A stretch of 64,000 nucleotides of DNA from Mobula hypostoma (lineage: Eukaryota), in NCBI RefSeq assembly GCF_963921235.1, contig NC_086108.1, forward strand, positions 81,532,001-81,596,000, given 5' to 3'. The position numbers and the translations under genes were made by a program. This document shows positions 1 through 53,731 of this stretch, one piece after another. Under the pieces are notes generated by a model. It was not told the origin of the DNA, made no database searches, and saw only the letters and a list, made by a program, of their open reading frames with translations. Each line of letters starts with the position of its first letter. Within the stretch, counting starts at the first letter, position 1.

Positions 1-834
1 GTGCTTAGAAGAAAAAGCAACTGCAGGAATGTGGAGTGAGTGTGCTGGTGTAACTGTGTTGCACTTACTTGGAGCCTGTAGGGACCAGAGTAGCCGAATG
101 GCTCCTTCCATGCTGTGAGAATTTCCTGTGATTTTACGTAAAATTCCTCCTGAATTCTAAATATCTATTTTTCTCTATTCTTCCTACAAAATATATTTAC
201 GCTTCCCTTTATTTTGCACTTTCTACCTGCAACCTTTCGGTTCACTTGCTTAACCTTGTCATCTCAGGAGCTACTCTACATACAATCAACAGATCTTTAA
301 TCTCCAGGTGATACTAATTCATTCAGTTCACTCCAAAAAGGCAATACTTTTCTTAGTTTATCATCTGCTGATGATATTTGCTCGTGCTTGCTCTCTCGCT
401 CTCTAGTTTAATATTTGAAGGTATTTTCTTCGACGGGTAGTTTCTCTGAGTTCAGCCTGAACTCCACTAGGTAGGGAAAAACAGTTAAGATTTACATTGA
501 AGTACAGTGTCTCAACTTGCAAGATGACCTATCTCTTCCTCTGAGCCCTCTTTACTTATAGTCCAAAAATCGCACCACTGCCAGTTTGATTGACACAATC
601 CTTCCTTTTGTCTGTACCCTCTCTTTTCTGTTTGCTGGATAAAGTAAAGTTTGATGTTCTTTGACAGAGAAAAGTTTTGAGTGTCTCAGCAGTCTAAAAC
701 ATATTAACGATAATTTCCCCTGATATTCACACCCGTGAATGCCTGTTAGGGACAAAGCGAGACAGAGCTGAAGTTATCTTGATGCATTGGCTTCTTACTT
801 TGTTGACATTATCATATACTGTAGCAGGGGTCCA

Positions 835-1395
835 TGGGGTGTGTGGGGTGTCAGGGAGGAGTAGCACCCCTGGTGGGGGAACATGTCGCGTCCTTTTCAG
901 GGCGGTTAGTCCACCTTTGGTCCCCACCTGGCACTCAGCTCTCACCTGTGTCTCCCCGTAGCTGTTTGCATGTGACAGCGGCCACACTCCGGGCAACGGT
1001 TTCGACAAGCCGGCTAAAGCAGGTGAGGGTAGCCGACGGGTCTCAAACCCTCGGTGTGATAGGGAGTTGTCTATCCCAGCACGTGAAGACAGACTCCGGC
1101 GGATTGAGCGGACGAGACCAATGGAAGGTCCAATGGTCAAGGCGGCGGTCTCTGCAAGTGTCATGGAACATGTAGAGCAGGACAAGACACAGAAGACGTC
1201 TCGGTCATCCACCGCACCCAGCCCCATCTCCAGCCATCTCGACTCTGTCTTGCCACTGGATCCAGATGGGAACTGGGAAGAGAGAGTGAGGCTGATGCTG
1301 TGCAACTCTCCCTCACTTAAATCCAAATCAAGCACTAGTCTCGACACCATCATAATGGTGTGGAGGTCCTCATCGACGTCAACGATGAATGAACA
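835..1395 (+). mobile_element. Non-autonomous non-LTR retroelement (~560 bp) with HDV-like ribozyme at its 5' end
   Basis: Flanked by a degenerate 14-bp TSD (GTAGCAGGGGTCCA 821-834 / GCAGCGGGGGTCCA 1396-1409). GC-rich and structured, with no credible ORF and a short ATGA-like tail. Confidence 0.75.
836..1029 (+). ncRNA. HDV-like (nested double pseudoknot) ribozyme fold; this copy has a P3 mismatch
   Basis: P1 836-842/984-990; P2 939-949/1018-1029; P3 950-952/981-983; L3 starts TCC; GGGCAA 991-996; P4 997-1012; J4/2 GCTAA with putative catalytic C1014. Confidence 0.7.
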
Positions 1396-1679
1396 GCAGC
1401 GGGGGTCCAGAAGAGAAGCTTGTGGTTGCATGAACAAAATATTTCAGGATTCCATCTCCAGTTTACAGTCTGTTTGAAAAGTATTACCACTGATGTAAGA
1501 TTCCACCACAATATCTTAGACCAGAAATTGCAGTCAATTTTCTAAAGGCTAATATTTGGTTCACCATGAGTTCGTCAGCATTCACCACTAAAGTGTCTGG
1601 CTACATTTCCTTTAGCCACATTAATGTTCTTTGAATTTAATTAGTATTAAATGTGCTGTATTCTTGGTATTTATAAGAC

Positions 1680-20185: not shown

Positions 20186-22119
20186 TGTTGTGTTTGGCCT
20201 TAATAAAGACAAACAGTGGAGGTAAAACTAGCACATTTTTATTTACAGGACACTCCAGGAATGATGGCTTCAGCTCGACCTAAGCGCATGCACCCAACTC
20301 CCCCAACGTCACTTCCAGTTCTGGGTGAACTGTCCACATCGCACATTGGGAACTGAAATTCTTTATTATGTATATACATAATAACACATCTTCCCCCTTT
20401 AAAGTTAAAAAAAAGCTATGTCCACGTAAATCTGCAGGGAACAATAATGCTTTCCAACAAAGATATTTACATTAACTTCAATTGTAATGAGCAAATACAG
20501 TTCCTTATTCACTCAGCAACTCTCGGACTCTGAGGTGGTTTGATGATCTTCTTTGGTCTACTATTGTGCTTGAGTTTGTGTTGTCTCGCAGCTCTACACA
20601 TATCCATAGCCTTTTCCAGCGTTAAATCTTTTTCACAGAGCAATCTTTCTCTGAGCCCATTATTTGAAGTCCTGCAACCTATTTTGTCTCTTCTAGTGAG
20701 ACTCTCAAATCTCCAATCTCACAGGACTTGCTCAGTGTGTGAAGCTCAGCTAAGTATTGGTAAAGCTAACACCTTGTTCCTGGTCACAGGAAAACAACTT
20801 ATATCTTTCAAACATGATGTGTTTACTTGCAACAAAATAACCTTAATTTTTTAAAATCAGAATGTCCAGTGTAAAAACAGTCTCATCAATTTGAAAGCTG
20901 TTGTAGATGTGCAAAGCAACTTCACCAATTATGTTTACAATGATAGATGCCTTCAATTTTCTATTTCCCCTCTGGCTCTACTCATTGCTAAATATATATT
21001 GGAGGCGGGAGGAGAATGTAGGAGGCTGGAGGAGAAGACAGCGGCGCAACGCAGCGCACGCAGCTCTCCGGTGAAATGATATCGTATTTGTAAGTGGGAT
21101 GCCGTGCACAATTCTGTTTTGATGGAGACAGACATGAGAAGGCACAGAGGAACATCTGGAGAAATTTCTGAAATGCCCGGCTCGCTGCCGCTGCTACTGT
21201 GCGATCAAGAATCTCCGGAAGGAAGGCCGCAAAATCTCCGGTTTTGCCTGCTGCTGGCAACCGAGGCTGGGGTTGAAGCGTTTGGCAGAGATGGTGCTCG
21301 GTACTCAGTGTCAGAGGGCTGATCAGAGCTCCAAGTTTTCAGATGTCTCAGAGTCGGACTGTGGTCGGGCATGGCAGGGAAGTTTCTCGTCCTTCTCCCG
21401 TCTGCGTGAGATGCGGGACTTTCGAGAGACTTTGAACTTTTTTACTATGCCATGGCCTGTTCTTCATCAAGTTATGGTATTGTTGCAGTGTTGTAACTAT
21501 ATGTTATAATCATGTGGGTTTTGTTAGTTTTTCAGTCTTGGTCTGTCCTGTGTTTCTGTGATATCACACCGGAGTAATATTGTATCATTTCTTAATGCAT
21601 GCATTACTCAATGACAATAAAAGAGGATTGCGTGTCCTCATAGTCTAATCTATTCTAATCTGATCTAATTAAATTGTCGTTTGAAGTGTTTCCAGTTATC
21701 AGCTGGATTTCCAGTCAACTGCATCAGTGTGGGAGAATTTAACTCATCCATTATGGAACTTCTCAGGCTCTCGCACCAAGAGACTTGGATGAACAATGGC
21801 AGCTGCAGGACACAACCTGCGCTCTGGCTAGCAGTTTCTCTCCATCGCTTTCTTAATCACTCGTGGTACATTTACTCTCCATGCTTAGTCCTTATGGCAA
21901 CTTCTGATGTTATGTTTGTTCTTAATAAAAGACAAACTTAGCGAGAGTAAAACTAACACATTATTTATTTACAGCAATGGCTCTAGCTTCACATGACCGC
22001 GTGCGGACTGCTCATGGCTTCAGCTCGACCTGAGCGCATGCAACCAGCTCACCGAACGTCACTCCCGTATTGCAGACTAGGAGCTGAAGTTCCATATTAT
22101 GTACACACATAATAACACA
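20186..22119 (-). mobile_element. Internally deleted Gypsy (Mag-like) LTR element with partial gag only
   Basis: LTRs at 20186-20388 and 21908-22119; TSD TAGAG/TAGAC; PPT AAAGGGGGAAGA; partial PBS TCAGAAGT. Gag from ATG 21751 (MDELNSPTLMQLTGNPADNWKHFKRQF...GLRERLLCEKDLTLEKAMDMCRAA), then an integrase-tail-like SRPKKIIKPPQ. Confidence 0.85.
21000..21668 (+). mobile_element. ~650-bp non-autonomous retroelement inserted in the Gypsy gag
   Basis: Homologous over its length to 43806-44462 (opposite strand). Ends CAATAAAAGAGGA...(TCTAA)n. Splits the gag codons QF|NIYLA. Confidence 0.8.
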
Positions 22120-22722
22120 TAGACCAGCAGAGCTTAAATCAAGATGAACTAAAATATTTAATATGATGCAAAATAAGACTTATGAAATAAAACAACGTTC
22201 AGGAAACAAAGCAAAAAGATAGAATGTAGAACATTGAAGAGTCTAGCACAGAAAGAGTTCCTTATATTATATTTCTTCTATTTAAATGTTCCGTGGGTTA
22301 ACAGTAAAGGATCATATTCTGGAAGAACTGGAGAACTTTTATTTACAATAATAAACAAATGTGTCTCAACCCCGCCATGTGCTGAAACATTCTGGCAAAC
22401 CCCGCACATGCTCAGTGCTGTCCAATCAGATACTGGCACGTCTTTGCACGTGATATCACCACACCTTCCCTTCCTTAAAAAGAAAAAATAAATAACAACA
22501 TTAATCAAAGCAAAGACATAATTCAACAAGTCTCAATCAGTCTCTCAGTGGGTTTACGAACATGAGTAGACCTTCTAAGTGGTACACACAGGTCTTGCGT
22601 TTCCTTGTTATTATTTACATGTTTTGTCCCGTCTGCACCAGTTAACTGAATCTCTGAAGAATCACATCTTCTTTTCCTTAAAAAGAAAAACAAATAACAA
22701 CATTAACCAATAAACAAATCAG

Positions 22723-24325
22723 CTAACGGAAACTCTGAAGTTGGCTCTTCACTATCTGAGCCATGACCCTTTTCTTTTTCTTCTTCTTTTCTGCTTTAAG
22801 CTTTTCTTTATGTATCTCAACTAAACTTTTTGGTATACTCTCACATGCCTCTTGGTTAGAATCTGGAATTTCAGGTAAGCAGTTCACACTATCCTCCTCA
22901 GCAATCTGCTTCCCTGCTTCTGTTTGGACTGTATCTTTCCTAATACCTTCCACTTCCATTTGTAATGAAATATGAATCATCTTTTCTTCATCTCATTCAT
23001 TCATTAACTGTGAAATCTCTTTTTTATGCTGTGACTTCATCATTTCAATAAAACTTCTCAATTCCTTTACTTGTGCTTTCACTTCTTCCTTATACTTTGC
23101 CCACTGTGAACGTTCTTGCTCTAGATGGTGATTATACTGTATCTCATATTCTCTCAGTCTCTCTTTCATTATCGCTTGCATTGAAGCAACCTCTTCCTGC
23201 TGTTGCTTTTTCATATCACCAATTGCCTCCTGTTTGGTCGTCTCAGACACTGCAGCTACTGCTTTTATATTCTTCATGTCAGCACTTTCATAAAGCACAT
23301 CTATATAAAATTCCTCACGTTCATCTTCAATCACTGCATTTACTTGTTTCATTTCATTTTCCTTCTTTCTACTTCTACAACAGCATGAAAAACGATTAAT
23401 CTTACCGCAGCTGTAGCAAAGTTTGCCATATGCGAAACACTGACTTAGATGGTGTTCCCGCGCACAGCGATCACGACTTTTCTTTTCAAATGCCGTCTTG
23501 CTCTCCATCGATTTTGTCAACGTATTATTATACTTCTTGATATAAAGAAGAGGAAAAATAGCCCTTAACTCGGCAGTGGAGTTATTGGGGCACCGTCTTT
23601 TGACAGTGTTTCCGTAGCAAGCTATTCTTGTTTTTATTAGGCCGAGTTGCTAGCTCGACGCTCAACTCGACTTGGATTTGAACTCTGGAACCTTCGCTCC
23701 GGAGTCCGGCGCTGATATTATTGTGCCACCAAGCGGGACATTTCTTGCTATATTCGCGCTTTTTATCAGCATTTACATTAAAGTTTTCAACAAAAACCTC
23801 TTCAGCCTGTGACATTACGGTCTCAGAATCTTTGCAGAGCACAAAAGCTTTTTCGAAATTTAAATCTTGCTCTCTCAACAGCCTTTCTCTCAGTGCATTA
23901 TCTCAAATGCCTCAAACAAGTCTATCTTTAATAAGAGAGTCTGTGAGCAATCCAAACTCGCACGTTCTACTACACTTTCTTAACTCCATAACATACTGAT
24001 CAATCGTTTCAGCAATCCTTTGCACACATGTGAAGAATTTATATCGGTCATATGTTAAGTTCTGCTTAGGTAAACAAAATACTTCAAATCTGTCCATTAT
24101 GGACTTTAAATTGAAATTATCTCCATCTTCAAAGACAAAATTATTATATACCTCTACTGCGTCATTCCTGATTACATGGAGCAGAAGCGCAGCTTTGGTT
24201 TTTTCTGATTTCTCTTCATAATCGATCACTGATAAGTACAGTTCAAACTGTTGCTTGAAGATCCTTCAATTCTCTGCTACATTCCCAGTCAGCTGAAGTT
24301 TTGGTAGGAGTTGTAAACCTTCCAT
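22723..24325 (-). pseudogene. Disrupted chimeric ORF: Gag + rabaptin (RABEP1/2)-like + SH3KBP1-like + SLU7-like segments
   Basis: ATG 24325 and ORFs 24229 and 23878 share one frame. After removing the SINE plus one TSD, ORFs 23520 and 22980 continue it. Only four point stops (24268, 23914, 23905, 22995). Gag motifs LTGNVAEN.RIFKQQF, LRERLLRE.DL and a degenerate double Zn-knuckle. Confidence 0.85.
23545..23737 (-). mobile_element. Short tRNA-like SINE inserted in the gag
   Basis: A-box-like TGGCACAAT and B-box GAGTTCAAATCC. Degenerate 15-bp TSD at 23530-23544 and 23738-23752 (12/15 match). Confidence 0.75.
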
Positions 24326-24603
24326 ATTACTGTTTGCAGTTCGAACTTATTTCCTTCTCTTTTTTTTTCGATTATCTTCGATTCTTGATTCTCAATTCTC
24401 CCGTATCATTCTTCCAGAAGCACTTCTGACGCCATGTTATATTTCTTCTATTTAAACGTTCCGTGGGTTAACAGTAAAGAATCGTATTCTGGAAGAATTA
24501 GAGAACTTTTATTTACAGTAATAAATAAATATGTCTTAACCCCGTGCATGCTCAGTGCTGTCCAATCATGTACTGGCACATCATTGCACGTGATATCACC
24601 ACA

Positions 24604-25120
24604 CCTTCAGCTCATCATGTCTATGCCAAGCATTGATGTCAATGTAAACTAATTCCTTCTGCTGCACATGAACGTAACTCTCTTTTGCCTGTTTAAATGC
24701 CACTGTCTGTGCTTCTATCATCTCACCTGGCAACTATTCCCTGCACTTGTGTAAAACGTTTACCTTTGTAAATCTCCTTTAAACTTTCCCCCCTTACATT
24801 AAAACTCTAGTATATGACATTTCCACACTGGAAATACAACACTGACTATCTACCCATATCTATACCACTCCGAATTTTATATCTTTCTACCAAGTTGCCC
24901 CTCAGCCTTTGATACTCCAATGAAAACAATCCAACTCTCCTTCTATCCAATGCACTCCAACCCAGGAACATGCTGGTGAACATCTTCTGACCCCTCTCCA
25001 AAGCCTTCACATTCTTACTATGGTGTGGTGACAGAAATGCGCAGATCTGTGCGAAGGTCCCAGCAATCTCCTCGTTTGCTTCCTTTAGTATTCCAGGATA
25101 GATCCCATCAAGCCCTGGGG
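24604..25120 (-). mobile_element. CR1 LINE fragments
   Basis: SPGLDGIYPGILKE and GLFSLEYQRLRGNLVERYKI remnants. Confidence 0.75.
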
Positions 25121-26226: not shown

Positions 26227-28478
26227 ATAGAAACATAGAAACATAGAAAATAGGTGCAGGAGTAGGCCATTCGGCCCTTCGAGCCTGCACCACCATTTAT
26301 TATGATCATGGCTGATCATCCAACTCAGAACCCCGCCCCAGCCTTCCCTCCATACCCCCTGACCCCTGTAGCCACAAAGGCCATATCTAACTCCCTCTTA
26401 AATATAGCCAATGAACTGGCCTCAACAGTTTCCTGTGGCAGAGAATTCCACAGATTCACCACTCTCTGTGTGAAGTTGTTTTTCCTAATCTCGGTCCTAA
26501 AAGGCTTCCCCTCTATCCTCAAACTGTGACCCCTCGTTCTGGACTTCCCCAACATCGGGAACAATCTTCCTGCATCTAGCCTGTCCAATCCCTTTAGGAT
26601 CTTATACGTTTCAATCAGATCCCCCCTCAATCTTCTAAATTCCAACGAGTACAAGCCCAGTTCATCCAGTCTTTCTTCATATGAAAGTCCTGCCATCCCA
26701 GGAATCAATCTGGTGAACCTTCTTTGTACTCCCTCTATGGCAAAGATGTCTTTCCTCAGATTAAGGGACCAAAACTGCACACAATACTTCAGGTATGGTC
26801 TCACCAAGGCCTTGTACAACTGCAGTAGTGCCTCCCGGCTCCTGTACTCGAATCCTCTCGCTATAAATGCCAGCATACCATTCACCTTTTTCACCGCCTG
26901 CTGTACCTGCATGCCCACTTTCAATGACTGGTGTATAATGACACCCAGGTCTCGTTGCACCTCCCCTTTTCCTAATCGGCCACCATTCAGATAATAATCT
27001 GTTTTCCTATTTTTGCCACCAAAGTGGATAACTTCACATTTATCCACACTAAATTGCATCTGCCATGAATTTGCCCACTCGCCCAACCTATCCAAGTCAC
27101 CTTGCATCCTCTTAGCATCCTCCTCACTGCTAACACTGCCACCCAGCTTCGTGTCATCCGCAAACTTGGAGATGCTGCATTTAATTCCCTCATCCAAGTC
27201 ATTAATATATATTGTAAACAACTGGGGTCCCAGCACTGGGCCTTGCGGTACCCCACTAGTCACCGCCTGCCATTCTGAAAAGGTCCCGTTTATTCCCACT
27301 CTTTGCTTCCTGTCTGCTAACCAATTCTCCACCCACACCAATACCTTACCCCCAATACCGTGTGCTTTAAGTTTGCACACTAATCTCCTGTGTGGGACCT
27401 TGTCAAAAGCCTTTTGAAAATCCAAATATACCACATCCACTGGTTCTCCCCTATCCACTCTACTAGTTACATCCACAAAAAATTCTATGAGATTCGTCAG
27501 ACATGATTTTCCTTTCACAAATCCATGCTGACTTTGTCCGATCATTTCTCCGCTTTCCAAATGTGCTGTTATCACATCCTTGATAACTGACTCCAGTAGT
27601 TTCCCCACCACCGACGTTAGGCTAACCGGTCTATAATTCCCCGGTTTCTCTCTCCCTCCTTTTTTAAAAAGTGGAGTTACATTAGTCACTCTCCAATCCT
27701 CAGGAATTAGTCCAGAATCTAACGAGTTTTGAAAAATTATCACTAATGCATCCACTATTTCTTGGGCTACTTCCTTAAGCACTCTAGGATGCAGACCATC
27801 TGGCCCTGGGGATTTATCTGCCTTCAATCCCTTCAATTTACCTAACACCACTTCCCTACTAACATGTATTTTGCTCAGTTCCTCCATCTCACTGGACCCT
27901 CTGTCCCCTACTATTTCTGGAAGATTATTTATGTCCTCCTTAGTGAAGACAGAACCAAAGTAATTATTCAATTGGTCTGCCATGTCCTTGCTCCCCATAA
28001 TCAATTCACCTGTTTTTGTCTGCAGGGGACCTACATTTGTCTTTATCAGTCTTTTCCTTTTTACATATCTATAAAAGCTTTTACAGTCCGTTTTTATGTT
28101 CCCTGCCAGTTTTCTCTCATAATCTTTTTTCCCCTTCCTAATTAAGCCCTTTGTCCTCCTCTGCTGAACTCTGAATTTCTCCCAGTCCTCAGGTGAGCCA
28201 CTTTCTCTGGCTAATTTGTATGCTTCTTCTTTGGAATTGATACTATCCCTAATTTCTCTTGTCAGCCACGGGTGCACTACCTTCCTTGATTTATTCTTTT
28301 GCCAAACTGGGATGAACAATTGTTGCAGTTCATCCATGCAACCTTTAAATGCTTGCCATTGCATATCCACCGTCAATCCTTGAAGTGTCATTTGCCAGTC
28401 TATCTTAGCTAATTCACGTCTCATACCTTCAAAGTTACCCCTCTTTAAGTTCAGAACTTTTGTTTCTGAATTAACTAT
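26227..28478 (-). mobile_element. Young 5'-truncated CR1 LINE
   Basis: (CATAGAAA)n tail, TSD GGGTTAC at 26220-26226 and 28479-28485, uninterrupted ORF2 segment. Confidence 0.97.
26325..28424 (-). CDS. CR1 ORF2 reverse transcriptase (N-truncated, no endonuclease)
   Basis: 699-aa open frame with KSPGPDG, NYRPVSLTS, QHGF, YLDFQKAFDKV, GVPQGPVLGP and KFADDTKL. Confidence 0.95.
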   Translation of the reverse strand: MRRELAKIDWQMTLQGLTVDMQWQAFKGCMDELQQLFIPVWQKNKSRKVVHPWLTREIRDSINSKEEAYKLARESGSPEDWEKFRVQQRRTKGLIRKGKKDYERKLAGNIKTDCKSFYRYVKRKRLIKTNVGPLQTKTGELIMGSKDMADQLNNYFGSVFTKEDINNLPEIVGDRGSSEMEELSKIHVSREVVLGKLKGLKADKSPGPDGLHPRVLKEVAQEIVDALVIIFQNSLDSGLIPEDWRVTNVTPLFKKGGREKPGNYRPVSLTSVVGKLLESVIKDVITAHLESGEMIGQSQHGFVKGKSCLTNLIEFFVDVTSRVDRGEPVDVVYLDFQKAFDKVPHRRLVCKLKAHGIGGKVLVWVENWLADRKQRVGINGTFSEWQAVTSGVPQGPVLGPQLFTIYINDLDEGIKCSISKFADDTKLGGSVSSEEDAKRMQGDLDRLGEWANSWQMQFSVDKCEVIHFGGKNRKTDYYLNGGRLGKGEVQRDLGVIIHQSLKVGMQVQQAVKKVNGMLAFIARGFEYRSREALLQLYKALVRPYLKYCVQFWSLNLRKDIFAIEGVQRRFTRLIPGMAGLSYEERLDELGLYSLEFRRLRGDLIETYKILKGLDRLDAGRLFPMLGKSRTRGHSLRIEGKPFRTEIRKNNFTQRVVNLWNSLPQETVEASSLAIFKRELDMAFVATGVRGYGGKAGAGF

Positions 28479-29668
28479 GGGTTACGGGTTTGATGTTTTC
28501 ACTGCCGTATCAGGGTGAGTGACCTGTTAGTTTCCATGCGAGGAAGAGGTTGGTTTTGCAGTTTGTGAGTTTTGTTTCTTTTTCTTTTGCGTGCAGGGGG
28601 GTGGGTGTGGTGGTTGATGTCTCTTCTTTTAACGACTTTCATGACTTTTCTGTATTTTATGTCTCTCTGAAGAAGACCAACCTCAGGGGTGTATTCTGCG
28701 TGCATGCTTTGATAACAAAATGAACCTTTGAACCTTTGACTTGTGATGGAATAGTTCCAAATCACTGGGTATATTGAAGGCAGGAACGGGTAGACTTTTG
28801 ATTACAAAAGGAATCAGGGAATATGTGCTTAATTCAGGAAAGTGGTGTTGAGGTAAAATATCACTGAGTTGGCAAGGCACCGGGTAAGGCTGAATGGTCT
28901 ACACTTCCTTCTGTTTCTTAACTCATGTAATGATATTAACTTAAGCCATCAAATTTCAACCAAGTTATAACTGCCTGCAATCTAATTCTCTCTCTCACTA
29001 CATAGTTCATCCTTCATCATGCTGTTTTTGTGTAGCTTCTTTTTTTGTCATTAACTGCAATTCTCAGTCAAGATTGGGGTATGATGTAATCAAGTGACTA
29101 ATCTAATAACTAGTTGATGATTAACTGTTTAATAGCAACATATATTACAAACTAGAAAAAAGAGCCGTCAATTCCAATAAATGTTTAGCCAGTATGTAAA
29201 TTAAGTTACCAGAAAGTTAGAAAATGATTCTTCGTTTTCTTGGAAAAACTGCAGTAAATCATACAAGTTGAAGTTAATAGATAACATTTTGCTAATGGCT
29301 GCTATTTCAATTGCGAAAGTCGCATTCATTAAAGATTGTTTAATATTTTTGCAAAATAATTCATCTTATTAGGAGCCAATGATCCGGAGGGAGGTTTCTG
29401 TTTTGTTTCAACAGGCTGGTGTAATAGGTAGAGTAGCAGCTCTAACAACCCAGGGTCCATCCTCACTTCCAAAGCTCCCTTTGTGGAATTTGTTTGTTTC
29501 CTCTTTAACTGGATGGTCTTTCCTCCGGGGCATCTGCTTTCCTCCCACATGCAAAAATGTGCCGGCTGGTTGGTTAAGTGGCAATTGTAATTGTGCTTTG
29601 TGTAGGAAGGCAGTTGGAGAATTGGTGTGGGGTGAAGGGTATCACAGAGTAGATCACTGGTAAGGGAG

Positions 29669-49827: not shown

Positions 49828-50376
49828 TTAATAATCCCTTAGACCAGGCTCCAACTCAGCAAACTTCATAGTGGCCAAAAACACTGATGAATTGCGACCA
49901 ATGTAACCTCTCATTTGGTTTTGTCCCGGACCACAACAACAAGGGTCGTCCCATTCCGACTCAATTTTCTCTCGCAAGGGCTTAGTAGGAGGGGGACGGG
50001 TATTGACCGCAGAGTTATTGCAAAACTTCCTGCAGTACCCCACCATCTCCAAGAGCCTTCTGAGGGCCCTCTTGTCTATCGGGGTTGGGAGGTCAGCGAT
50101 AGCCTGCACTGTAGCTTGCATCACTGCCAGCTGCCCCTGTGTCACCACAATTCCCAGGTAAGTGACCCTTGTGTGGCCGAATTCATTTTTTTCAAGGTTC
50201 ACTATCAAGCTGGCTTCAGACAGCCGTATTAAATTGCCAATACACACCTCTGTGTTCATCAGCCCTTTAGTCACTGAATTACTCAAAAAATATGGGTGTT
50301 GTTTACTTGGCTGCCCTATTGTAACCACAATCACCCAAGTCCCAGTTCTTTGCATTTCCTCGGGACAATCAAACAC
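49828..50376 (-). pseudogene. Degenerate RT remnant (no YxDD)
   Basis: KQHPY and LSEASLIVNLEKNEFGHTRVTYLG...LRRLLEMVGYCRKFC match the RT N-flank and thumb; the catalytic core is absent. Confidence 0.85.
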
Positions 50377-52748
50377 ATGGGTGCGAGTCGTTTAATTACT
50401 CCTTCGGGGATTAAGGGAGAGACCTTATCAGTAGACCTGGCCAAAACAATAGCCTTCTCCCATCTGACCGATCCCATCCTAATCTTTTCAAAATGGTTCT
50501 TTTCTCTTATCAGGGGGCCCCTAGCTTCATTGATTTCCACGCTAACACCGACTAGGTTTGTTAGCATATCAAAAGCCGGTGACCGTCTCAGTTCGCGTCG
50601 GTCATGATCAATAACATTTTTCCCCCTGGGCAGCCGGTAAATCTCTTTCATGATTCCACCAACTGTTTCCTCCAGCACCGCAAAATGTCCACCGGGGGGT
50701 ACCTCGTGGGCCATGTTAAAAACCTCATCCCCATAACTCTTTTGCACCACCCCCCACTCCTCATCTGCGGATGCTGTACTTGATTTCCCTTTCTTCCTTA
50801 GCACTTCCTCATCCGCACAATAGCTTGTCAAGGCTGTGTCAGAGAGAGCGGTCTCGGCAAAAACCATCAGCCCCTCGTCTCGCTCCTGCGTCTGCACAAA
50901 TTCTTTCCTGGCTACTGCTACGTCCGTCCCAGCTCCCTCACTACCTCTTATCTCACTACACCCTGTCTCATACAAGGTTGGCAGAAATGTTTCAGCCAAA
51001 TTCACCATCGCGGGCGGGGCCTCCATGCTGGCAGGCTGACCCGTCAATCTCACGACTGGGAACACGATTCCTCCGGCGATGTCATTACCGAGCAAGACTT
51101 CCACGTCTTTCATCGGTAATTCGGACCTCACCCCGATCGTGACTAGTCCAGAGACCAGGTTGCTCTGTAAGTGTATCTGGTGCAAAGGGACTGGCTCTGT
51201 CCCTTCCCCAACACCTTTGACCTCTACCTCCCCAGTCTGGGTCTCTGAGCTAAACTCTAATACACTCTTCAGTATTAGTGACTGACACGCTCCCGTGTCT
51301 CTCCAGATCCGCACTGGAACTGGTTTTAACCTCTTTTTCACTGACACCAGTCCGGCCGAGATAAACCTCTCGCGCCCTTCCTGGACTTTTTCAGACCTGT
51401 CCTTCCCTAGCGGTTCGCTTAACAGCTCAATACAGCCATTCAAAATTTCCGCTTTTCCTTTCCCCGTCTCCTTCCTTGGGGCAAAGCACCTGGACGCAAA
51501 GTGTCCGACTTTCCCACAATTATAACAGACGACCCCAGGAGACTTCCTACCAGACTGCTCCCGGTCTACCTTATCCTTTTCACTAGTCCCCGGCTTACTT
51601 TCTGACTTTTCCAGCGGACTCTCCCCTCCGTCCTGACTACCCTTCTGGTAGCCTTTACTCGGGGCAAACTTCATTTTATGCGTCAACGCATACTCATCCG
51701 CTAACTTAGCAGTTGCGGCTAACGTGGCTGCCTCTTTCTCATCGAGGTAGGGTCTCATACCCTCAGGGACACAACCTTTAAACTGCTCAATCAGAATCAG
51801 CTGCAGCAGTCTGTCATAATCCCCCTCTACCCCTTTCGAGGCGCACCAACGCTCACAATATGTTTGCATCTCGCGAGCAAACTCCAAATACGTGCAGTCC
51901 CACTGTTTCCTCGCATTCCGGAACCTCTGCCGGTATGCCTCCGGGACCAACTCATAAATCCTGAGGATGGCCTCCTTCACCACCTCATACTTCTGGGCAT
52001 CTTCCGCGGATAAAGCGGAGTAAGCTTGTTGGGCCTTCCCTTTCAGTACACTCTGAAGTAAGACAACCCACTTATCCCTCGGCCATTCCTGACTTATGGC
52101 CACTTTTTCGAAATGGAGAAAGTACCGATCCACATCGGTATCGTCAAATGGGGGAACCAGCCTAACCTCCTGGGTCGCCCGGAACCCTCCACCTTGGTTC
52201 GGCACGAGCCCCTGCTCGGCCCTTATCTTTAACTTCTCCAGCTCAAATTCCCTTTCCCTCTGTTTCTCCTCTCTCTCCAACTGTCTGTCCCTCTCTCTCT
52301 CTTCTCTCTCCAACTGTCTTTCTCTCTCTTGCCTTTCTACCTCTTTCTCTCTCTCCCGCCTTTCTAACTCTCTCTCTTTCTCCCGCCTTTCTAACTCTCT
52401 CTCTTTCTCCTGCCTTTCTAACTCTCTCTCTTTCTCCTGCCTTTCTAACTGCTTCTCTTCGTGTTCTAACTGCCGTACCCGGAACTCGTGCTCGAGTCTC
52501 AGTTTTTCAAGCTGTACCTGTACCGCGTCTCCAGCAGGTTTTTCAATAGACACCTCCCCCAGCTCACCTTGGGGAAACACACCTTTAGATACATAGTGCT
52601 CTACAATAGCTCTGTGTATCTCCTCTCTCCTCATTGTCGACTTCACCTTAGCAAGATTCACCCGTTTTGCCACAGCTATCAATTCCGATTTCCTGGCATC
52701 CTCTAATGCCTCCAAGGTCGGTGCCTTTATAAATTCCTCAACCTCCAT
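50331..52748 (-). CDS. Gag (SCAN-like capsid, CCHC knuckle) - aspartic protease - pol remnants
   Basis: 805-aa open frame: E/R/K repeat, VPEAYRQRFR...ILIEQFK, CYNCGKVGHFASRC, RDTGACQSL, LLGND, and integrase Zn-finger remnant AHEVPPGGHF. Confidence 0.92.
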   Translation of the reverse strand: MEVEEFIKAPTLEALEDARKSELIAVAKRVNLAKVKSTMRREEIHRAIVEHYVSKGVFPQGELGEVSIEKPAGDAVQVQLEKLRLEHEFRVRQLEHEEKQLERQEKERELERQEKERELERREKERELERREREKEVERQERERQLEREERERDRQLEREEKQREREFELEKLKIRAEQGLVPNQGGGFRATQEVRLVPPFDDTDVDRYFLHFEKVAISQEWPRDKWVVLLQSVLKGKAQQAYSALSAEDAQKYEVVKEAILRIYELVPEAYRQRFRNARKQWDCTYLEFAREMQTYCERWCASKGVEGDYDRLLQLILIEQFKGCVPEGMRPYLDEKEAATLAATAKLADEYALTHKMKFAPSKGYQKGSQDGGESPLEKSESKPGTSEKDKVDREQSGRKSPGVVCYNCGKVGHFASRCFAPRKETGKGKAEILNGCIELLSEPLGKDRSEKVQEGRERFISAGLVSVKKRLKPVPVRIWRDTGACQSLILKSVLEFSSETQTGEVEVKGVGEGTEPVPLHQIHLQSNLVSGLVTIGVRSELPMKDVEVLLGNDIAGGIVFPVVRLTGQPASMEAPPAMVNLAETFLPTLYETGCSEIRGSEGAGTDVAVARKEFVQTQERDEGLMVFAETALSDTALTSYCADEEVLRKKGKSSTASADEEWGVVQKSYGDEVFNMAHEVPPGGHFAVLEETVGGIMKEIYRLPRGKNVIDHDRRELRRSPAFDMLTNLVGVSVEINEARGPLIREKNHFEKIRMGSVRWEKAIVLARSTDKVSPLIPEGVIKRLAPMCLIVPRKCKELGLG

Positions 52749-53731
52749 TTCTGCTGTTTGTCTTTTCTTTCTTTCGGGAATTTTAACCCAATCAATTTAC
52801 TCCGTCCCAAATTTAGCGTTCAAAATCCCGGACGAGCCCCCACTTATGTTACGTACCCCGTAACTGGGTTGCCAAACCAGCAGAAATGGATCACTCAGTT
52901 GGAGTCTGGAGTACTAGAACTAAGAAAGTTTTATTAAAGAAACAAGCAACACAGTAATCGAAAGGATAATAAATGCAACAATTCAACAATGATAACCACA
53001 CATGTGCACAGAATTAAGATAACAGCATCAATCAAGCTCTATCGTTGTCTAGGGGTAAATGACCAATTTCAAAATGACTCAAAGTTCAGTCCAGTTTGTA
53101 GTTCAGTTCACAGTAATCGTTGCCATGGCGATGGACAAGGTGGGGGAAGAGAGACAGAATAGGAACAACTGATCATTCAGAACACTGCTTCACTCACAGA
53201 CCAGCGGGATGGCTCACAGACCAGCGAGATGGCTCACAAACAGCTTTTGGGCAGGTCCTTGGTGATGTCACCTGAGGTCACCGACTGTGACCCCTCCTCC
53301 AGATGCGGTCGATCCTCTGCAGTGAACCCGGCACCCAGGCAAGGGCGGACACACACCGGGTTCCCGCTGATCGTACCTTTCCACCCTTGTCGTTGTCCGG
53401 TACTTCTCACCCACTCGTGAGAAGCGCACCGCTTCCAGGGTCTCGTTACCTCGGGTGGCGTGTGTCCCTGTCTTAGCGAACCTGTCCCTTTTTATCCCCC
53501 TGCTGGGGTATCGCCTGTCCATCACTTCAAACAGTTCAGGGTTCAAAGGGGGGAGCCGCTCCAGACAGCTCTCTCTCTCCCACATCCCTTCATTACACAT
53601 CTCCAGACGCTGCTCCATTGTTCCTTATCTCTCCTTCCCCTGAGGGCAGGTGGCAGACCAACTGCTGATGCCACTGATGCTAGCCCAGGCCAGCAAACAT
53701 CTTAATTTTATGTGTATTCTCGTAACAATAC

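What the first reader, a model, noticed from the sequence alone, without database searches (positions are those of the whole stretch)
22265..24603. Pol-less Gypsy LTR element whose Gag is fused in frame to three captured host-gene fragments (rabaptin + CIN85 + SLU7)
Seen: a complete cis-set (two LTRs, PBS, PPT, TSD). One frame runs from ATG 24325 through Gag and its Zn-knuckles, and removing the SINE at 23545-23737 restores it exactly. Where the protease should start (after ...EEFYIDVL), the frame continues for ~175 codons of non-retroviral sequence, and only the integrase tail of pol remains. From recalled human sequences, that block is a mosaic of rabaptin, SH3KBP1 and SLU7 segments. All three are sense, in frame with Gag, intron-free here, and charged or coiled-coil. 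Inference: serial mRNA capture by RT template switching. Three junctions all in frame would be about 1/27 by chance given sense capture, which hints at selection on the fusion protein in the ancestral family. Two donors are endocytic-trafficking adaptors and the third gives a poly-Lys tract, so the cargo might have altered Gag oligomerisation or targeting. This copy is dead (four stops plus a SINE).
Basis: partly seen in the sequence, partly recalled or inferred. Interest (0 to 1): 0.96.

Follow-up and report, generated by a model that had tools for sequence, protein, structure and literature searches.

The report
Ray retrotransposon carrying three host fragments
This is a dead copy of an abundant, crippled jumping-gene family of stingray-like fishes that carries spliced pieces of three host genes in its coat-protein reading frame, and surviving sister families show that the mosaic was built stepwise, by separate captures that were later recombined.

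Summary
Confirmed and extended. 22265-24603 (minus strand) is a non-autonomous Gypsy-type LTR element. Its Gag frame runs into spliced fragments of RABEP1 (aa 87-152), SH3KBP1/CIN85 (616-666) and SLU7 (430-490); five host introns are precisely missing.

It belongs to a multi-copy family (at least 69 SLU7-bearing copies). The genome also holds the RT-bearing parent, RABEP1-only and SH3KBP1-only sister families, and recombinants of them. So two captures were separate and were joined by element-element recombination; SLU7 sits inside the integrase tail. Like fusions are annotated as genes in Hypanus and Hemitrygon.

All 14 junctions shared by several copies keep the frame.

Against a working cargo protein: no amino-acid constraint was detected (16N:6S shared against 176N:52S private), and one sub-lineage probably spread with Gag frameshifted. 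Best reading: selection for an unbroken frame, with the cargo as stop-free filler.

The mechanism is known (maize Bs1; Tan 2016). The scan noted other capture families in this genome but, by word search, not this one.

The parts
24604..24608 (-). Target-site duplication, 5' copy (GAAGG on minus strand)
   Evidence: 5-bp TSDs in many other copies
24435..24603 (-). 5' LTR, TG...CA, about 30 nt shorter than the 3' LTR
24421..24434 (-). Primer-binding site (likeness to a tRNA-Leu 3' end is recalled, not tested)
23289..24325 (-). gag (capsid, two degenerate Zn knuckles), three stops, interrupted by the SINE; protease absent in this sub-family
23545..23740 (-). SINE-like insertion private to this copy, 12-13 nt target duplication; tRNA-type A/B boxes read by eye; no Rfam hit there
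23089..23288 (-). Captured RABEP1 mRNA, aa ~87-152, sense, Gag frame; host exon join at 23163/23162 (about 9-kb intron absent)
22936..23088 (-). Captured SH3KBP1/CIN85 mRNA, C-terminal coiled coil aa 616-666; host exon joins at 23024/23023 and 22960/22959; one stop at 22995-22993
22921..22935 (-). Five codons of integrase tail left by a 33-nt in-frame deletion
22746..22920 (-). Captured SLU7 mRNA, aa ~430-490 (poly-Lys tract); exon joins at 22900/22899 and 22816/22815; private 10-nt deletion near 22770
22703..22745 (-). Integrase-tail codons and the sub-family's new stop (22705-22703)
22523..22702 (-). First copy of 3' UTR and polypurine tract, then a repeated integrase tail with the native stop (3'-end duplication shared by many, not all, window-type copies)
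22464..22480 (-). Polypurine tract
22265..22463 (-). 3' LTR (terminal CA reads TA here)
22260..22264 (-). Target-site duplication, 3' copy (TAAGG)

Best explanation
A non-autonomous Gypsy-type family, copied in trans by its RT-bearing parent. SHOWN (about 0.93 on its own): the parent's RT-to-integrase core was replaced once by spliced RABEP1 mRNA (type R) and separately by spliced SH3KBP1 mRNA (type S), at 5-8 nt microhomologies. R and S RNAs recombined (type RS). SLU7 mRNA replaced part of the integrase tail. Deletions then removed the protease, giving the window type. INFERRED: copying success depended on one unbroken frame from the Gag ATG to a stop near the 3' LTR. Gag and Pol share one frame in this family, so an out-of-frame junction would leave a long 3' UTR and a less stable, less packaged RNA, and perhaps less Gag made in cis. 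Sense, in-frame host coding sequence is stop-free filler, so only such captures spread; what the cargo protein does is incidental. The constraint may have lapsed late.
For: Types R, S, RS and parent all seen. Intermediates with protease plus all three cargos: L020, L028. Five introns precisely absent in the window cargo. 14 of 14 junctions shared by 3 or more copies keep the frame, against nulls of 0.34-0.45 (exact matches, element x host), up to 0.56 (host x host) and 0.39-0.63 (imperfect matches; one small-count cell at 0.80). At two capture points a longer out-of-frame microhomology lies within 10 nt and was not the one fixed (9 against 6 nt; 10 against 5 nt, read). The SH3KBP1 capture leaves the mRNA five codons before the host stop. 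Private indels keep the frame in only 6 of 17 (cargo) and 8 of 39 (Gag) cases. No stop is shared by 4 or more copies, against 15 private stop alleles (too few for significance). No amino-acid constraint on cargo: 16N:6S against 176N:52S, P = 0.6.
Against: In a cargo-defined sub-lineage 7 of 10 copies (2 of 17 outside it; P = 0.004) share a 2-nt shortfall in an A-run of gag that ends the frame before the cargo. Either that master was copied without the long frame, or the uninterrupted run shrank independently. The 3'-most junctions lie within about 70 codons of the native stop, where RNA decay should hardly matter, yet they are in frame too. No RNA-stability or expression data: no run was on record as RNA. 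The step from long 3' UTR to decay is general knowledge; one search listed nothing direct on it (listing only).
Confidence: 0.5

Rival explanations
1. The cargo protein itself was useful. A hybrid RABEP1-CIN85 coiled coil on the Gag(-protease) C-terminus clustered the defective element's Gag, or tied it to vesicles, so its RNA won more places in helper particles; the SLU7 poly-Lys added RNA binding or nuclear import.
For: Every inner junction keeps the cargo's own frame. Trimming dropped the proline-rich part of SH3KBP1 and the protease but kept the C-terminal coiled coil almost whole, which trimerises in CIN85 (bioRxiv 2023.07.31.551239, passages). Both R/S crossovers fall on a shared valine codon and keep the hydrophobic spacing (read by eye). 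Three copies of the Hemitrygon hybrid segment (P0246, residues 94-250) fold as one continuous bundle: score 0.46, best of 3 controls 0.00, pLDDT at least 76, runs agree in at least 90% of contacts. That mark was reached by 21 of 30 solved homo-pairs and 0 of 23 single chains, but by only 7 of 16 animal pairs.
Against: The fold pass may be memory of the solved CIN85 coiled coil (PDB 5abs, 2n64). No amino-acid constraint on cargo; net dN is about equal to net dS between sub-families, at about 1% divergence and low power. Probable Gag frameshift in one sub-lineage. Retained cargo is 65-69% purine against 53-64% for most non-captured or dropped exon pieces and 52-62% for the element, so charged coiled coils may be captured for their base composition.
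Confidence: 0.22
2. No selection on frame. Only LTRs, PBS, PPT and packaging signals mattered; in-frame junctions reflect the frame bias of microhomology between purine-rich coding RNAs plus luck, and the cargo is pure hitchhiker.
For: The in-frame null is well above 1/3, up to about 0.6 for host x host imperfect matches. The window was picked because it looked in frame. Probable frameshifted sub-lineage. Star-like trees of copies and near-neutral decay among them. An earlier scan note reports an antisense cargo in another family of this genome (e1-7790638; not checked here).
Against: Longer out-of-frame microhomologies were passed over twice. No other or out-of-frame cargo among 20 loci picked by protease/RT start (17 parent, 2 R, 1 S) or 11 previously unidentified loci picked by integrase tail (5 parent, 5 S, 1 R).
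Confidence: 0.22
3. Host conflict through small RNAs: captured pieces make piRNAs against host genes or shelter the element from silencing, as reported for Drosophila TART-type elements.
For: Precedent: captured piwi, aub and nxf2 fragments of 140-235 bp, and higher copy number of capturing families (PMC13534243, passages). SLU7 differs more from its host gene than the other cargos do (stem S 0.135 against 0.02-0.04).
Against: The three donors are not piRNA-pathway genes (own knowledge). This idea does not predict frame keeping. No small-RNA data were examined.
Confidence: 0.06

Closest known systems
LTR-mediated retrocopies of animals (Tan et al. 2016, PMC5131818; passages and section 7 read)
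   Same: Partial intron-less mRNA replaces the internal ORFs between two LTRs; microsimilarity at switch points (median 6 bp there, 4-8 here); several parental genes can be combined (mouse Super retrocopy with four); chimeras are copied again.
   Different: Those are young or low-copy cases. Here there are tens to hundreds of copies per type in several ray genera, the one-, two- and three-cargo stages all survive, two cargos were joined by element-element recombination, and all shared junctions are in the Gag frame.
Maize Bs1 (Elrouby and Bureau 2001, 2010; seen only through PMC5131818 and PMC13317346; the paper itself was not held)
   Same: LTR element with fragments of three unlinked host genes, re-retroposed with shared switch points.
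   Different: Bs1 has 1-5 copies, one of its three fragments is out of frame, and it is reported transcribed and translated. Here copies are many and decayed, all fragments are in frame, and expression is not shown.
Host-gene capture by vertebrate ERVs: crocodilian CrocERV31-nectin3 and CrocERV29-KIT ligand (PMC4299795, passages); bird ERVs with 107 host domains (PMC12287698, abstract and section 11)
   Same: Captured host mRNA carried in a multi-copy LTR lineage shared by related species.
   Different: Those are retroviruses, mostly with whole ORFs or single domains, and purifying selection was reported for the crocodilian cases. Here it is a Gypsy-type element with a fragment mosaic and no detected constraint.
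Gag-onc fusions of acutely transforming retroviruses (recalled, no call)
   Same: Helper-dependent genome in which host coding sequence is fused in frame to Gag in place of pol.
   Different: No env seen, germ-line amplification, and no evidence of a cargo effect on cells.

Membership tests
Ty3/Gypsy LTR retrotransposon, non-autonomous derivative | Paired LTRs with TG...CA ends and a short TSD | tested here: met
   (window 3' LTR ends TA; 5-bp TSDs)
Ty3/Gypsy LTR retrotransposon, non-autonomous derivative | PBS complementary to a host tRNA, and a PPT | tested here: inconclusive
   Both sites present and conserved; the tRNA match is recalled, no tRNA compared (one search found none in the window)
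Ty3/Gypsy LTR retrotransposon, non-autonomous derivative | Gag, then pol in the order protease-RT-(RNase H)-integrase in the parent | tested here: met
   Aspartic protease after Gag in L051 and L038 (below Pfam cut-offs); RT follows in 17 of 20 loci; integrase-type tail last. RNase H and the integrase core were not fetched.
Ty3/Gypsy LTR retrotransposon, non-autonomous derivative | RT phylogeny places the parent in Gypsy/Metaviridae | not tested
   Similarity only: nearest polyproteins include ones named K02A2.6-like or Gypsy integrase-like
LTR-mediated retrocopy (Tan 2016) | Cargo is spliced, partial mRNA | tested here: met
   1 RABEP1, 2 SH3KBP1 and 2 SLU7 introns absent, one of them GC-AG
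LTR-mediated retrocopy (Tan 2016) | Cargo replaces part of the internal ORFs, with microsimilarity at switch points | tested here: met
LTR-mediated retrocopy (Tan 2016) | Chimera re-retroposed as a unit | tested here: met
   Same junctions in 3-36 fetched copies with different flanks and TSDs
LTR-mediated retrocopy (Tan 2016) | Transcribed from the LTR as one RNA | tested here: inconclusive
   Junction-spanning contigs in runs only guessed to be RNA
Bs1-like functional chimeric gene | Fusion is translated and under protein-level constraint | tested here: inconclusive
   No constraint detected, low power; translation not testable here
Domesticated host gene | Single conserved intact locus | tested here: not met
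   Window copy has four stops, a SINE and a frameshift; the family is dispersed and decaying

The most novel reading that the evidence does not exclude
A parasite of a retrotransposon built a new accessory protein out of host parts: a Gag-tethered hybrid coiled coil (rabaptin plus the CIN85 trimerisation domain) with a basic SLU7 tail, assembled by shuffling modules between sister defective elements and selected because it improved their entry into helper particles. This would be accessory-gene origin and exon shuffling for the element's own benefit, with every intermediate preserved as a fossil series.
Probability: 0.22. Interest if true: 0.88.

Novelty: new variant of a known kind. Interest (0 to 1): 0.63.

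Why it matters
It is an unusually complete record of how LTR elements build mosaic ORFs: parent, two single-capture families, recombinants and the three-cargo form coexist, so order and junctions can be read directly. It shows a route not spelled out in the precedents I read: captures made by different elements are later combined. The 14-of-14 frame retention makes a general question testable across the several capture families in ray genomes: do defective LTR elements need an open frame, or the protein it encodes? Practically, these copies are annotated as genes in RefSeq (for example 'rab GTPase-binding effector protein 1-like', XP_072880776.1) and inflate apparent paralogue counts.

Tried and rejected
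Misassembly or single-copy accident: rejected. 39 other full-length cargo matches at 89-92% among 40 scored, and like fusions in two named ray genera.

Low-complexity coiled-coil likeness: rejected by DNA-level exon matches. DNA-level capture or L1-type processed pseudogene: rejected, because introns are gone, cargo has no poly(A), and both LTRs are present. Splicing of the element onto a RABEP1 exon: the R junction lies 1-2 nt inside the exon start, but the element has no GT donor there, so I kept template switching.

SLU7-only family: not found. All 69 non-host SLU7 matches cover about the same stretch, and the 30 window-type loci held as DNA all carry the other two cargos; the rest were not read upstream.

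Expression: no RNA holder listed; 4 of 14 listed runs were laid, all contigs; this is no evidence either way.

Gag and protease dN/dS between backbones is low (net 0.13-0.16 for capsid, 0.02 for protease, RS against S). I set it aside because it may have accrued in autonomous helpers, and some window-type Gag stretches were poorly aligned. The higher Gag than cargo divergence among window-type copies (0.856 against 0.920 identity) was set aside because loci were chosen by cargo score.

Polarising SLU7 with one skate protein gave only 4 sites (2 host changes, 1 element change, 1 unclear). No intact Gag-cargo protein of 337 aa or more appeared among the best 120 of 285 hits. Rfam gave one chance-level hit.

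Literature searches that showed no report of this family in their listings. Subscription papers, Repbase/Dfam entries and supplements (for example Tan 2016 tables, not opened) could hold it. PMC13320880 (passages) filters out repeat-overlapping and multi-copy retrocopies and does not mention it in the passages seen.

Full report
OBSERVATION. The element lies on the minus strand, 24603 to 22265. The LTRs are 169 and 199 nt with 14 mismatches in 169 aligned bases; PBS, PPT and a 5-bp TSD (4 of 5 equal) are present. The frame from ATG 24325 is Gag-like and holds four stops and a private SINE-like insertion. After the Gag end come RABEP1 aa 87-152 (Pfam E 1e-30), SH3KBP1 aa 616-666 (86-90% to ray and skate proteins; also PDB 5abs and 2n64), five codons of integrase tail, and SLU7 aa 430-490 (81-84% to a skate protein). 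The host is a ray by protein likeness: its RABEP1 and SH3KBP1 exons are 93-100% identical to stingray-group proteins in the clean exon matches.

RNA ORIGIN. I located the three host genes in G000 and fetched the exons. The window cargo lacks one RABEP1 intron of about 9 kb, two SLU7 introns (one GC-AG) and two SH3KBP1 introns, each at the exact splice site.

FAMILY. The cargo has 476 first-look candidates; all 40 scored are near full length at 89-100%. SLU7 gives 69 non-host matches among 78 scored. These are lower bounds. LTR pairs of 18 copies differ by 4.5-12.6%, many with clear 5-bp TSDs. Trees of copies are star-like. Like fusions are annotated in Hypanus sabinus (XP_059819315.1, protease-RABEP1-SH3KBP1) and Hemitrygon akajei (XP_072880776.1 and XP_072897951.1), with the same junctions. 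Contigs from coded organisms B and C bridge the window-type junctions, and organism G covers all 30 bins (4 of 14 listed runs laid). The captures therefore probably predate the split of these rays (inference; horizontal spread is not excluded). Expression is not shown.

HOW IT WAS BUILT. Parent: Gag and protease lie in one frame, followed by RT; 17 of 20 loci picked by protease/RT start run on into RT. Type R: RT start, RABEP1 61-172, integrase tail (L032, L033, L066, L073). Type S: RT start or the protease-RT linker, SH3KBP1 540-666 or 526-666, integrase tail (L048-L057, L067; L053 and L054 are duplicates). L051 keeps a 563-codon open frame. Type RS: RABEP1 to 152, SH3KBP1 616-662, back to the RABEP1 tail (L034, L036-L038, L040-L042; L039 is truncated). 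L035 is a separate R-to-S crossover, also in frame, seen once. Window type: RS-like 5' part, the S-type SH3KBP1-integrase junction, and SLU7 inside the integrase tail; L020 and L028 still hold the protease end and RABEP1 61-86. Because the window type carries the S family's own 3' junction, its SH3KBP1 came from an S element, not directly from mRNA. That SLU7 came last is the simplest reading, not proven: no SLU7-only family was seen, but most SLU7 loci were not read upstream, and SLU7 is the most diverged cargo.

FRAME. Fourteen junctions are shared by 3 or more fetched copies: seven capture points, two crossovers, five deletions. All keep the frame. One further shared jump, from the integrase tail into the 3' UTR, makes a new stop five codons on and has no frame to score. 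The null is not 1/3. Exact microhomologies between these coding sequences are in frame in 0.34-0.45 of cases (element x host) and up to 0.56 (host x host); imperfect ones in 0.39-0.63, with one small-count cell at 0.80. Twice a longer out-of-frame microhomology next to the junction was not the one fixed. Private indels keep the frame in 6 of 17 (cargo, 29 copies aligned) and 8 of 39 (Gag, 19 copies aligned) cases. Samples not chosen by cargo showed no other cargo (20 loci; 11 of 40 tail matches plus one control read), but they are small and biased to close relatives of the query.

AGAINST A WORKING CARGO. Among 30 window-type copies, non-CpG changes shared by 4 or more copies are 16 nonsynonymous to 6 synonymous, private ones 176 to 52 (P = 0.6). 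Net distances between sub-families are about 1%, with dN near dS, so power is low. The low dN from host to R, RS and S groups mostly reflects the host gene's own constraint. Of 27 window-type copies scored at an A-run in gag, 13 have an in-frame length and 9 share a 2-nt shortfall that ends the frame before the cargo. Seven of those 9 fall in one sub-lineage of 10 (P = 0.004); in the other types 13 of 15 scorable loci (two of them duplicates) have the full in-frame length. Independent shrinkage of an uninterrupted A-run is possible, but a frameshifted master is the simpler reading. The retained cargo is 65-69% purine, which confounds the charged and coiled-coil pattern.

FOR A WORKING CARGO. 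Trimming kept the CIN85 coiled coil, described as its trimerisation domain. The hybrid segment of P0246 folds as a continuous three-chain bundle (score 0.46, best control 0.00, pLDDT at least 76, at least 90% agreement; 21 of 30 pairs and 0 of 23 single chains reach the mark, 7 of 16 animal pairs). This may be memory of solved coiled coils and shows possibility only.

MECHANISM. Shown: template-switch capture, recombination between sister elements, amplification. Inferred: selection kept the frame (about 0.72 in all), more likely for an unbroken ORF that protects the RNA or supplies Gag in cis (0.50) than for the cargo protein (0.22); chance with frame-biased microhomology 0.22; small-RNA conflict 0.06.

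COMPARISON AND VERDICT. It meets the tested features of LTR-mediated retrocopies (Tan 2016) and parallels maize Bs1, which has three host fragments, one out of frame, in 1-5 copies. ERV captures are known in crocodilians and birds. My searches listed no report of this family. Earlier scan notes describe other capture families in this genome (RBM25, MYH16, SUDS3 with antisense RNF213, USP35; unchecked), while the words rabaptin, SH3KBP1 and SLU7 met no note. Capture itself is therefore common here; what is special is the preserved build series and the frame record. New variant of a known kind; interest 0.63.

Noticed in passing
window 20186-22120 (minus): A second, unrelated small LTR element directly downstream: LTR pair about 20186-20389 and 21908-22120, decayed gag, a repeat inserted inside, no pol seen, and no DNA match to the finding's element.
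   Followed up: partly
L035 (G000:C80:23146668-23150153): Independent RABEP1-to-SH3KBP1 crossover at an 8-nt microhomology, in frame, seen in one copy only.
   Followed up: partly
L058 about 7310 (host SLU7, G000:C21): The host SLU7 intron after the second captured exon has a GC donor.
   Followed up: no
L053 and L054 (G000:C1:168.38 and 168.43 Mb): Two S-type copies with matching coordinates and junction sequences 45 kb apart, and a third, inverted match nearby (C1:168424761): segmental duplication or assembly duplicate.
   Followed up: no
window 22523-22710: Many window-type copies carry a duplicated 3' end (UTR, PPT, first LTR bases, then the integrase tail again); L010, L021, L022 and L028 lack it.
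   Followed up: partly
window 26325-28481 (minus): 718-codon open frame of a LINE-type reverse transcriptase (CR1/L2-like by eye), possibly young.
   Followed up: no
window 49828-52796 (minus): 821-codon Gag-like frame with a long E/R-rich repeat and a Zn knuckle, followed by RT-like pieces: another Gypsy-type element.
   Followed up: no
window 727-1477: Overlapping open frames on both strands without repeat hallmarks; could be a host exon.
   Followed up: no
P0245, P0246, P0138: RefSeq gene models in Hypanus and Hemitrygon that are copies of this element family, one named as a RABEP1-like gene.
   Followed up: yes
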